A stretch of 64,000 nt of DNA from Escherichia coli (GTDB taxonomy: Bacteria > Pseudomonadota > Gammaproteobacteria > Enterobacterales > Enterobacteriaceae), in NCBI RefSeq assembly GCF_044647545.1, contig NZ_CP172818.1, one strand, 5' to 3'. Shown piece after piece: positions 27,801 to 30,800 of the stretch. Each line of letters begins with the position of its first letter. Positions within the stretch are counted from its first letter, which is position 1. Made by a program: the position numbers.

Positions 27801-30800
27801 CAAACGAAAACCGCCAACTATATTCGTCGCGGATGATAAAAAGGCAGGTGCTTCGCTGAAAATCATATCGAATGTGATTTCATAATCTGGTGGCGATAAA
27901 TACAACGGCATAGTTGGGGGGAATGTGATGGGTCGACATATTAGGCTCCGGAAGGAGTACGGAGAAGGATTATCAATTCCTGCCGTCGAAAAATGACCGA
28001 TTTCGTGAACGGAAGAATCACGCGTACATTTAGAAAAGGCAGTGCTCCCACCGTTCACCTTCAAACCACCAGCGGGACAAAGAACCAAGGACCAAACCGC
28101 GGGGAGCCGAAAGCAAAGGGAAAAAAAAAAAAAAAAAAAAAAAAAAACAAAAGAAAAAAAAAAACAAACAAAGAGAAAACCAAAAAAACAATACCTCCTA
28201 GAGGCATATCAAAGCACAAGCCCACACAGCGGAAAGAGGCATACAGTCCTCGGTTAATTATCCACTCTTTTGGCATCTCTGAATCGGTTTGTTTACATAC
28301 CGTACCGGCAAAAGTTTCAACTGTGAGCAAATCGACTGATTTTGTTGACGGTTCGAACGTGGAGACGAAATAGATATCCGTCTTAAAATTCTTCATACAT
28401 CTGACTAAATGATGACGTCGCAGTTTGACTTCTTCATCCGGTGACTTATTCGACACTTCAATATCATATTTAAATGAATTGCCAAAAATAGGTGTCTCAG
28501 GAAAGTTGACTAATCTACACTCCGTCTTTTGCTGTTGACGTATTAAAAAAGAAGGGAAGATATTTGCGAGATCCCAATAATCACGGTGGCGGTATTCACG
28601 GGGAGAGCAGCCGAATAACTTTTTAAATTCGCGGCTGAATGACTGCTGTGAATCAAAATGCAAAGAGAGTGCAATATCAAGCATAGATTTCGCGGAGAGC
28701 CGGACAAGAATGGCGGCACGACAAAGCCTTCGTTTGCGAATGTATTCTCCCAAAGGCACATGCATGAAATTTCGGAACAGAAGCTGGATGTTGCGTCTGC
28801 TGTAGCCAGATTTCTGTGCGATATCTTCGATTGAAATAGGGTGCTCAAGATTGCACTCAATCCACTCCAGGAGCTGCTGTAGAATCTTCTGCCTGATCAT
28901 CACATACTCCGTTAATTCTTTGTCATATCGCACATTTTCGTTATGTCCTGGGCCCTAAGTGTATCAAAAACAGCAAGGCGCAAGGAAAAAGCACTGATAG
29001 CGTCTGCTTCATTGCCCCAAAAATAGAGAGATTTCTGCCCTCCATTATTAATGAATTTTTTGCATAAGTGATATCAAAATCCACATACTAATTTGAGGTT
29101 ACGTTTTAACGTAGACTCATTGCTCATACCTAATGGAGGGACTGACAGTGGAATTTTCCGTATAATCTGCTTCAGAGTATTGCAGATGCCCATCAAAAAT
29201 CGATTTCTCAGGTCATTCTGCGTTGGAATATTCAACGGGGAGTGGTCGTTATTCCGAAATCGACACATCAACAGCGTATCGAAAAAAATTTTGCTATTTG
29301 GGATTTCTCACTGACAGAGAAAGAAATGGCGCAAATTAGTTCGCTTGATTTGGGTTATGTTGGGGAATCGGTAAAACATTTTAATCCTGAGTTTGTTCGT
29401 GGTTGTCTTGCTGTAAAAATACATGATTGATATTAATCACTTATTTTACCTGAGACGACAAGAATCTTTTATCAGGGGAGTGATATTGATCTTCACTCTG
29501 TCATATCTCCGGTAATATGGCGTCAGGCTTCATTAACAGAAAGGGGGCCTGACGCCTGAAAAAGTGAACAACAGACAGTGTTCGGATTATCAATATTCAG
29601 TTTTTAACGTTGAACTGGATTCATTACTGCGTTGTTTAAGAATATCCCGCGCCGAATCTGCCATTATCATGACAGCACCTGCCAGCATCAGAGTATCTTT
29701 CAATACCAGGCGACCAGCACCGGATAAATAAGGGAAACCATGATGAGCGTCACCCAATGCGGGTACCCATGCCTCCGGGGTGGTGATTAAAAATGAGAGT
29801 GTTACCAGCGGCGTGGTAAATGCCATCAGCCCACCCAATAAACCTAACCAGCGATTGACAGGATTAGCCAAAACCAGCAGAGCAATAATCACCTCCACGA
29901 CGCCAAGACCGTTGGAAAAACCATAGGTATTATTAGCCGATTGCCATGCCCTTGCTTCTGGTTTGTATTCGCCTTCGTGAGTCAGATACTGTTTATAGTC
30001 TTCCGGGTGTTCATAAAAGAACGACATTAGTGGACTGTTTGCGACGAATGGTGTAATGCTGTCTGCCTCGTAAGGGACAAACTTTAATAACCCAATCCAC
30101 ATAAAAACAATCGCAATACTCAGACGAATCAATGTCAGGCCAATTTTATCTCCCCGACTTAACAAGTGCAGGTATTTCTCCATTGTAAACATCCTTATTT
30201 ATACAATACTGCTGTTGCGGTTGAATTATTATCAATTCGCATCGATGTGACTTTCCAGGATGAAGCATTATATTTTCTGGCCATATCAGCAATGGCATCC
30301 TCCAGAACTGTCGGTGATGCTGATACTGACGAGACGCTGATATGTTTCAGAATTATTTTATCATCTGCATTGGTGGAAAATGCCATAACGCCAGATAATA
30401 GTGTTGCAAATAAAACAGGTTTTTTAAACATATAAAATACCATCAATGAAGTGATTAAGAAGTTATATAATAACAGGGAATTAATAAGATTCTTTTCTCT
30501 GAGACGCCAGAATATTTGTTCTGGCGTCTGATTTTGAGTTTATTTGACTAATGAAAATAGATCATTGAGTGATTCGCTCATCGACGGATGAGTAAATATC
30601 TGATCGCGTAATATGCTATAAGGCAGCCCGGCATCCATCACCATTTTCACTATATTGATCATCTCGTGGGAGTCAACACACAGCAGTGATGCCCCTAATA
30701 TACATTGGGTTTTATTATCAACAATCGCTTTTAATACCCCACGGGTATCGTTCATCACTCTGGCGCGCGGAATTGCAGCTACAGGCAATGTCACCACCTG

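What the first reader, a model, noticed from the sequence alone, without database searches (positions are those of the whole stretch)
28934..29589. Gene remnants between ykgA and rclC
An aldo-keto-reductase C-terminal fragment (29170-29430) lacking its N-terminal domain lies between an AraC-family regulator and the rcl locus, suggesting a decayed regulator-plus-reductase pair (a common stress-response arrangement) adjacent to the reactive-chlorine resistance genes.
Basis: partly seen in the sequence, partly recalled or inferred. Interest (0 to 1): 0.2.

Follow-up and report, generated by a model that had tools for sequence, protein, structure and literature searches.

The report
Decayed aldo-keto reductase gene (ykgQ-type)
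This is the dead remnant of an aldo-keto reductase gene that is intact in about half of E. coli strains and already annotated as the pseudogene ykgQ in K-12, so it is ordinary gene decay.

Summary
Window 29164-29430 (+) encodes the last 88 codons of a 289-aa aldo-keto reductase (AKR). It matches residues 202-289 of the intact E. coli protein WP_022645239.1 at 87/88 residues, and Pfam Aldo_ket_red at E=1.4e-10.

The gene's own start (GTG at 29148) and five codons also survive. A 587-bp out-of-frame deletion joins them to codon 202 and removes the whole catalytic tetrad.

K-12 MG1655 has exactly this junction, plus a further 100-bp deletion between 9-bp direct repeats, and annotates the rest as pseudogene ykgQ (b4631). 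Among 5,426 complete E. coli genomes, 2,937 keep a near full-length gene and 2,091 carry the 587-bp deletion junction. Every carrier listed also has the second deletion. IS1 insertions give further dead alleles in Shigella.

The "regulator-plus-reductase pair" idea is only partly supported. The Rob-like regulator ykgA sits beside this AKR only in Escherichia, and it comes and goes with the adhesin gene fdeC. In other genera the AKR usually neighbours a LysR regulator. The rcl block is an indel.

One caveat applies. The window's allele has the 587-bp deletion alone, on the SNP background of intact-gene strains, and no complete genome shares it. The window is also a mosaic with garbled stretches, so this allele may be an assembly artefact.

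The parts
28225..28900 (-). ykgA, 5' 676 nt (codons 1-225 of 285). It encodes a Rob-like AraC-family regulator: two HTH motifs plus a GyrI-like effector domain in intact homologues. The 3' end is lost into low-complexity sequence at 28034-28224.
   Evidence: Pfam HTH_18 and HTH_AraC. The best NCBIfam match of the intact homologue is RobA over its full length, but below the cut-off. The GyrI-like domain is seen in the E1V33 homologue. Homology to L001 starts at 28225. The ORF tail is poly-F/L junk.
28901..29147 (.). Divergent ykgA-AKR intergenic region, presumed to hold the promoters of both genes. It is undamaged.
   Evidence: Identical to the intact-gene strain FDAARGOS_497. The consensus scan found no sigma-70-like site here.
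29148..29163 (+). 5' stub of the AKR gene: GTG start plus codons 2-5 (VEFSV). After the deletion this frame reads straight into TAA at 29163-29165.
   Evidence: Alignment to L001 3924-3939; translation.
29162..29163 (.). Junction of the 587-bp deletion (CDS nt 17-603 of the intact gene). It has 2-bp microhomology, AT. The junction is identical to that of K-12 ykgQ.
   Evidence: BLAST segments overlap by 2 nt. Three-way alignment. The junction is present in 2,091 of 5,426 genomes.
29164..29430 (+). AKR C-terminal remnant: codons 202-289 plus the TGA stop. It retains the IPKS cofactor-binding motif and lacks the catalytic tetrad.
29202..29210 (+). First copy of the 9-bp direct repeat GATTTCTCA. 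This is the left end of the further 100-bp deletion seen in K-12-type genomes. That deletion has not occurred in the window.
29302..29310 (+). Second copy of the direct repeat GATTTCTCA. The annotated K-12 ykgQ corresponds to window 29302-29430.
29284..29284 (+). Private G>A change (E242K in the dead frame). Apart from the deletion and a mismatch at 28227 on the edge of the garbled tract, it is the only difference from FDAARGOS_497 in 28225-32000.
   Evidence: The E variant of the 62-aa ORF is in public data and the K variant is not.
29519..29556 (.). 10-bp perfect inverted repeat (GGCGTCAGGC / GCCTGACGCC) in the convergent AKR-rclC spacer. It is probably the shared transcript-end hairpin. The U-tract is weak on the rclC side and absent on the AKR side.
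   Evidence: Fold -25.8 kcal/mol, z=-3.4 on the minus strand and z=-4.9 on the plus strand. It is not called by the terminator scan and has no Rfam match.
29590..30192 (-). rclC (DUF417 inner-membrane protein), intact. It is the right-hand neighbour.
   Evidence: Pfam DUF417 at E=4.5e-80; annotation in L001 and K-12.

Best explanation
The interval holds a non-functional remnant of a DkgA/YvgN-like aldo-keto reductase gene. It is the same decay lineage that K-12 annotates as pseudogene ykgQ.

Shown:
- A single 587-bp deletion removed CDS nt 17-603 (codons 6-201). It was made by illegitimate joining at a 2-bp microhomology (AT).
- It shifted the frame, so the native start now gives a five-codon peptide followed by TAA.
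- The last 88 codons are left without an in-frame start until a GTG at 29242.
- All four catalytic residues are gone (D44, Y49, K78, H112 in the intact protein). No reductase can be made.

Shown by comparison: K-12-type genomes went one step further. They lost another 100 bp between the 9-bp direct repeats GATTTCTCA, the signature of replication slippage. The window keeps both repeats and the 100 bp between them.

Inferred, not tested: the upstream intergenic region is untouched. The stub is therefore probably still transcribed from the AKR promoter into a non-coding RNA that ends at the hairpin shared with rclC.

Inferred from repeated independent inactivation: the gene is dispensable in E. 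coli and Shigella. The lesions seen are this deletion, IS1 insertions at two or more sites, and absence of the locus in about 7% of genomes.
For: - Family assignment and exact residue mapping.
- Deletion size, frame and junction.
- K-12 ykgQ annotation and shared junction.
- Population counts: 2,937 genomes with a near full-length gene and 2,091 with the junction.
- Natural intermediates with the 587-bp deletion only, in two gut-metagenome contigs, L040 and L045.
- IS1-truncated alleles in Shigella and metagenome contigs.
- An IS1 in the ykgA-AKR spacer of E. coli 2021CK-00607, with the AKR intact.
- The intact protein is a typical roughly 290-aa AKR. Its closest solved relatives are 1vp5, 4mhb, YtbE (3b3d), YvgN (3d3f) and DkgA (1mzr).
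- No family match for any other small ORF on either strand of the interval.
- No Rfam match.
Against: - Nothing contradicts the pseudogene reading of the sequence as given.
- A 62-aa ORF (GTG 29242-29430) remains. Its E-variant is called as a gene in Shigella records, so translation of a fragment cannot be formally excluded.
- The authenticity of this particular allele is uncertain; see the rival explanations.
Confidence: 0.9

Rival explanations
1. The deletion in this window is not a real allele of the source organism. It is an artefact of a chimeric or low-quality assembly, and the true genome carries the intact AKR, as its closest relatives do.
For: - The flanks are identical to intact-gene strains (FDAARGOS_497 type) across 28228-32000. 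The only exceptions are the deletion and one SNP that lies inside the 100 bp K-12 lacks.
- The junction is nonetheless base-for-base the K-12-lineage one. The K-12 lineage differs at SNPs 3 bp to the right and about 33 bp to the left of it.
- No complete genome among 5,426 has this combination, nor do JGI metagenomes.
- The window is a mosaic: 1-13 kb is 100% MG1655 and 13.5-24.3 kb is 100% FDAARGOS_497.
- Sequence quality collapses starting at 25773, within 3 bp of where K-12's IS3 insertion begins, and recovers at 28225, 17 bp from its other end.
- 47-54.3 kb carries about 40 small indels, mostly 1 bp.
- A RefSeq genome (BS-04) shows the same kind of low-complexity garbling in exactly this 587-bp segment.
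Against: - The junction is clean and the flanks are error-free.
- The other K-12 structural features nearby (IS3, the 100-bp deletion) are not copied into the window.
- Alleles with the 587-bp deletion only do exist in nature.
Confidence: 0.4
2. The allele is real. It arose either by independent recurrence of the same 587-bp deletion on a different haplotype, or by a very short gene-conversion tract that imported only the deletion from a K-12-type donor.
For: The junction is the same on two SNP backgrounds. E. coli recombines frequently.
Against: - A 2-bp microhomology is not a credible recurrent hotspot.
- The 6-bp repeat AATCTG near both ends would predict a different junction (reading).
- Conversion would need breakpoints within 3 bp and about 33 bp of the junction.
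Confidence: 0.1
3. The remnant has been retained for a function. Candidates are a 62-aa C-terminal AKR fragment, or an RNA convergent to rclC that modulates rcl expression.
For: - The promoter region is intact.
- A stable hairpin is shared with rclC.
- A ChIP-validated AtoC site was reported on the junction-spanning sequence in K-12 (PMC3118216).
Against: - The remnant is further eroded in 2,091 genomes and hit by IS1 in others.
- There is no Rfam or protein-family signal.
- A quarter of a TIM barrel is not expected to fold (inference).
Confidence: 0.03

Closest known systems
E. coli K-12 pseudogene ykgQ (b4631)
   Same: It occupies the same locus between ykgA and rclC and derives from the same parent gene. 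The 587-bp deletion junction is identical.
   Different: K-12 has a further 100-bp deletion between the GATTTCTCA repeats, which the window lacks. K-12-type SNPs differ by about 3-5% from the window. The annotated ykgQ covers only the part equivalent to window 29302-29430.
Intact E. coli aldo/keto reductase WP_022645239.1 (289 aa; strains FDAARGOS_497 and CFSAN061771)
   Same: 87/88 identity over residues 202-289. The flanking DNA is identical.
   Different: The window lacks codons 6-201, which include the catalytic tetrad.
DkgA/DkgB (2,5-didehydrogluconate reductases) and B. subtilis YvgN/YtbE (AKR5-like glyoxal/methylglyoxal reductases)
   Same: These are the closest characterised or solved relatives of the intact parent protein.
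   Different: The parent scores 234.8 bits against a DkgA cut-off of 425, so it is a paralogue and not DkgA. Its substrate is unknown.
Rob (RobA), the AraC-family regulator with a GyrI-like domain
   Same: Intact ykgA matches RobA over its full length and has the HTH_18 plus GyrI-like architecture.
   Different: It scores below the RobA cut-off (191.8 against 380). In the window its last 60 codons are lost.

Membership tests
Aldo-keto reductase superfamily (Pfam PF00248) | Significant match to the family profile | tested here: met
   E=1.4e-10 and 41.2 bits against a cut-off of 24, but only profile positions 227-289 of 291 are matched.
Aldo-keto reductase superfamily (Pfam PF00248) | Complete (alpha/beta)8 barrel of about 275-330 residues in one open frame | tested here: not met
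   Only 88 codons remain. The native start is out of frame and stops after 5 codons.
Aldo-keto reductase superfamily (Pfam PF00248) | Catalytic tetrad Asp-Tyr-Lys-His | tested here: not met
   D44, Y49, K78 and H112 of the intact homologue all lie in the deleted codons 6-201. The tetrad positions were assigned from conserved motifs, which is established AKR knowledge.
DkgA equivalog (NCBIfam NF008598) | Score above the curated cut-off for the intact parent | tested here: not met
   234.8 bits against a cut-off of 425.
K-12 ykgQ pseudogene allele | Position between ykgA and rclC, and the 587-bp deletion junction CCGTAT/AATCTG | tested here: met
K-12 ykgQ pseudogene allele | Second 100-bp deletion between the GATTTCTCA repeats | tested here: not met
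   The window retains 29211-29301. It matches the intermediate seen in contigs L040 and L045.
   ykgA is adjacent in 2 of 32 species-level loci. LysR is the usual neighbour. The AKR persists where the fdeC-ykgA block is absent.
   This needs reporter or ChIP experiments in a strain where both genes are intact.
Intrinsic terminator (hairpin 29519-29556) | GC-rich stem followed by a U-tract | tested here: inconclusive
   The stem is strong, but there is no run of T after it on either strand and the scan does not call it.

The most novel reading that the evidence does not exclude
The window's allele is genuine. In that case the same 587-bp deletion sits on a haplotype that everywhere else carries the intact gene. 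This would imply either recurrence of an identical deletion at a 2-bp microhomology, or a conversion tract only tens of bases long that transferred just the deletion between E. coli lineages.
Probability: 0.1. Interest if true: 0.25.

Novelty: already known. Interest (0 to 1): 0.08.

Why it matters
It matters little in itself, since this is routine loss of a dispensable accessory oxidoreductase that K-12 already annotates.

It has three minor uses.
- The locus gives a tidy three-step decay series: intact gene, then the 587-bp deletion, then the additional 100-bp deletion, with the mechanism readable at each junction.
- The synteny data show that the AKR is the old resident gene, and that fdeC-ykgA and rclCBA-rclR are blocks gained or lost on either side of it. 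This warns against inferring regulation from adjacency here.
- The anomalies around the locus flag the window itself as a mosaic, partly garbled sequence. Other findings from it should be read with that in mind.

Tried and rejected
- Intact upstream frame or split gene: none found. There is a stop at 29143-29145 in the AKR frame and no other AKR-like piece in 28934-29147.
- Other small ORFs on both strands of the interval: six were tested and none matched NCBIfam.
- Structured RNA: no Rfam match at E<=1.
- Promoter and terminator consensus scans: one weak promoter-like site inside the remnant, which is fewer than the shuffles give, and no terminator call.
- Exact junction with the window's SNP in JGI metagenomes: 0 hits.
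- Exact look-up of the window's 62-aa ORF (K variant): absent. The E variant is present and led to the Shigella and metagenome alleles.
- K-12 second-junction query: uninformative, because pieces 100 bp apart are merged by the tool.
- Slippage between the 6-bp AATCTG repeats as the origin of the 587-bp deletion: rejected, because it predicts a junction 8 bp different from the one observed (reading).
- Literature: no paper links ykgA to the AKR or to fdeC. Martin, Gillette & Rosner 2000, "The ykgA gene of Escherichia coli", is not held.

Full report
**What is in the sequence**

The interval 28934-29589 lies between two minus-strand genes. On the left is an AraC-family gene with its start at 28900 (Pfam HTH_18 and HTH_AraC). 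On the right is rclC at 29590-30192 (DUF417, E=4.5e-80).

On the plus strand, translation of 29158-29430 matches Pfam Aldo_ket_red at E=1.4e-10, but only the last 63 positions of the 291-position profile. It also matches the C-terminal quarter of NCBIfam DkgA and DkgB.

**Comparison with intact genes**

A megablast of 28200-30250 against 5,426 complete E. coli genomes finds the region in 5,099 of them. In the best hits the match is split into two pieces with about 587 extra bases in the subject.

In strain FDAARGOS_497 the locus reads fdeC, then a helix-turn-helix gene (ykgA homologue, 285 aa, minus strand), then an aldo/keto reductase (870 bp, 289 aa, plus strand), then rclC-rclB-rclA (minus strand), then rclR.

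Window 28225-29163 aligns to L001 3001-3939, and window 29162-31000 aligns to L001 4525-6363. The window therefore lacks 587 bp, which is CDS nt 17-603, and the two segments overlap by 2 bp (AT).
- 587 is not a multiple of three, so the frame shifts.
- The native GTG at 29148 now reads VEFSV and then TAA.
- The remaining 88 codons (29164-29427) are 87/88 identical to residues 202-289 of the intact protein.
- The catalytic tetrad of the parent (D44, Y49, K78, H112, assigned from the conserved AKR motifs) lies wholly in the deleted part.
- In the AKR frame the first usable start is a GTG at 29242, giving a 62-aa ORF.
- No other piece of an AKR lies upstream.

**Relation to K-12**

MG1655 annotates ykgA (b0300) as a pseudogene truncated by IS3A. 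It annotates a 129-bp pseudogene, ykgQ (b4631), between ykgA and rclC.

The three-way alignment shows that K-12 has exactly the same 587-bp junction (GGAATTTTCCGT|AT|A.TCTG). It has in addition lost 100 bp between two copies of GATTTCTCA, at window 29202-29210 and 29302-29310. That is the signature of slippage between direct repeats. The annotated ykgQ corresponds to window 29302-29430. The window's remnant is thus the ykgQ lineage one step less decayed.

**Population picture**
- The intact gene used as query covers at least 80% of its length in 2,937 of 5,426 genomes. Elsewhere it matches only as the 169-bp K-12-type remnant, or not at all.
- A 120-bp query centred on the junction is matched across the junction in 2,091 genomes. 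Every one listed stops at the left GATTTCTCA repeat, which means it also has the 100-bp deletion.
- An exact-sequence look-up of the 62-aa ORF (E variant) found it in public records. Two gut-metagenome contigs, L040 and L045, have ykgA, the 587-bp deletion and rclC without the 100-bp deletion, on K-12-type SNPs. These are the natural intermediate.
- Other contigs, including Shigella chromosomes, carry IS1 insertions inside the gene at window-equivalent positions of about 29201 and 29233-29236.
- One E. coli has IS1 in the ykgA-AKR spacer.
- The gene has therefore been inactivated several times independently, as expected for a dispensable accessory function.

**What the parent gene is**

The intact protein's closest solved relatives are small AKRs: T. 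maritima 1vp5, Yersinia 4mhb, B. subtilis YtbE (3b3d), YvgN (3d3f) and E. coli DkgA (1mzr). It scores well below the DkgA equivalog cut-off (234.8 against 425). It is a DkgA/YvgN-like paralogue of unknown substrate.

The intact ykgA matches RobA over its full length, below the cut-off, and has HTH_18 plus a GyrI-like domain. It is a Rob paralogue.

**Testing the "regulator-plus-reductase pair next to rcl" idea**

A scan of one genome per species with the intact AKR returned 32 loci.
- tblastn and ORF clustering show that ykgA is adjacent in only two of them: Escherichia whittamii and Escherichia sp. E1V33.
- In those two the order is fdeC-ykgA-AKR-ykgE-ykgF-ykgG. The 3.6-kb rclCBA-rclR block is missing.
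- Two further Escherichia loci, L006 and L007, lack the 5.8-kb fdeC-ykgA block but keep the AKR. There it sits next to a paralogous AKR and a LysR gene.
- In Enterobacter, Citrobacter, Kosakonia, Leclercia and others, the commonest neighbouring regulator is LysR-type. It appears with carboxymuconolactone-decarboxylase-like, cupin and alcohol-dehydrogenase genes.

So the AKR is the old resident. ykgA comes and goes with fdeC, and rcl is a separate indel. Adjacency here is not evidence of a regulatory module. The remnant reading is supported and the functional-pair reading is not.

**Other features in the interval**
- The ykgA-AKR spacer (28901-29147) is identical to intact strains. Residual transcription of the stub is therefore plausible, but this is inferred.
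- The AKR-rclC spacer contains a perfect 10-bp inverted repeat at 29519-29556. It folds well (z=-3.4 and z=-4.9) but has no proper U-tract and is not called as a terminator.
- There are no Rfam matches.
- None of six small ORFs on either strand matches a protein family.
- A published ChIP-validated AtoC site in the K-12 "ykgA-ykgQ" spacer, ACTATACGGAAAATTCCACT (PMC3118216), is the reverse complement of the sequence spanning the deletion junction. This is a curiosity with no tested consequence.

**Caveat on this particular allele**

From 28228 to 32000 the window is identical to FDAARGOS_497 except for two things: the 587-bp deletion, and a G>A at 29284 that lies inside the 100 bp K-12 lacks.

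Yet the deletion junction is the K-12-lineage one, and K-12's SNPs differ 3 bp to the right and about 33 bp to the left of it. No complete genome and no JGI metagenome contig has this combination.

The window as a whole is odd.
- 1-13 kb is 100.0% MG1655.
- 13.5-24.3 kb is 100.0% FDAARGOS_497 and relatives.
- fdeC matches perfectly up to 25772. It then accumulates indels from 25773, which is within 3 bp of where K-12's IS3 begins. It degenerates into CA-rich and poly-A low-complexity text, and snaps back to perfect ykgA at 28225, 17 bp from the other IS3 boundary.
- 47-54.3 kb has about 40 small indels, mostly single-base, that break yahD-yahJ. Its best match to any genome is 97.7%.
- A RefSeq assembly, BS-04, has the same style of garbling in exactly the 587-bp AKR segment. 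Such artefacts therefore exist in public assemblies.

I rate it about 40% likely that the deletion on this haplotype is a product of how the sequence was assembled. I rate a genuine recurrence or micro-conversion at about 10%. The remaining probability covers a real but unsampled lineage. Only the reads can decide.

**Verdict**

The object is an already known kind of thing, and essentially an already annotated one: the ykgQ-type AKR pseudogene. The mechanism of origin is clear, and the functional-module interpretation is not supported by synteny. Interest is low.

Noticed in passing
window 25773-28224: The distal part of fdeC and the 3' end of ykgA are garbled. The sequence matches strain CFSAN061771 perfectly up to 25772. 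Indels then start within 3 bp of the K-12 IS3A insertion point. Next comes CA-rich and poly-A low-complexity sequence with only 71-88% collinear similarity to fdeC, with about 3.0 kb compressed into about 1.8 kb. Perfect identity resumes at 28225. This looks like an assembly or consensus artefact and not biology.
   Followed up: partly
window 1-64000: The window is a mosaic of blocks identical to different strains. 1-13 kb is 100% K-12 MG1655 (CP4-6 prophage end and the pao genes). 13.5-24.3 kb and 28.2-33.6 kb are about 100% FDAARGOS_497/ST648-like. 58-60 kb is 100% MSI001-like. No single complete genome exceeds about 98% over 22 kb.
   Followed up: partly
window 47000-54300 (also 55800-57300): About 40 small indels, mostly 1 bp and not in homopolymers, plus about 2-6% mismatches break yahD, yahE, yahF/fdrA, yahG, yahI and yahJ into small ORFs. 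The best match to any of 5,426 genomes is 97.7%. This is either sequence noise or extreme pseudogenisation.
   Followed up: partly
L031 and L008 (about 5865-6185) compared with L003 7785-11397: The whole rclC-rclB-rclA-rclR block is absent between the AKR and ykgE in Escherichia whittamii and Escherichia sp. E1V33. The reactive-chlorine locus is therefore an indel relative to these close relatives of E. coli.
   Followed up: partly
L006 and L007 compared with L003 981-6817: Two other Escherichia species lack the 5.8-kb fdeC-ykgA block as a unit, while the AKR and a neighbouring paralogous AKR remain. ykgA may belong functionally with the adhesin gene fdeC and not with the AKR.
   Followed up: no
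L046 1245-2074 (E. coli BS-04, NZ_CP172819.1): This RefSeq complete genome has a low-complexity, G/A/T-run-rich version of exactly the 587-bp AKR segment that K-12 lacks (142 mismatches and 40 gap positions). It is annotated as a frameshifted pseudogene and is probably an assembly or polishing artefact in a public record.
   Followed up: partly
window 29148-29167 (K-12 ykgA-ykgQ spacer): The AtoC-binding sequence reported and ChIP-validated in K-12 (ACTATACGGAAAATTCCACT, PMC3118216) is the reverse complement of the sequence that spans the 587-bp deletion junction. The site was therefore created by the deletion. The window differs from it by one base (A for G at 29165).
   Followed up: no
window 1001-2000: Inside the block that is otherwise 100% identical to MG1655, the IS1 copy (K-12 IS1C position) is only about 97% identical. 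It is a different IS1 isoform from the one at this site in MG1655.
   Followed up: no
window 51440-51800: BLAST against strain MSI001 gives a ladder of offset matches with a 93-bp period, which indicates a tandem repeat array in the yahG-yahI spacer (yahH region).
   Followed up: no
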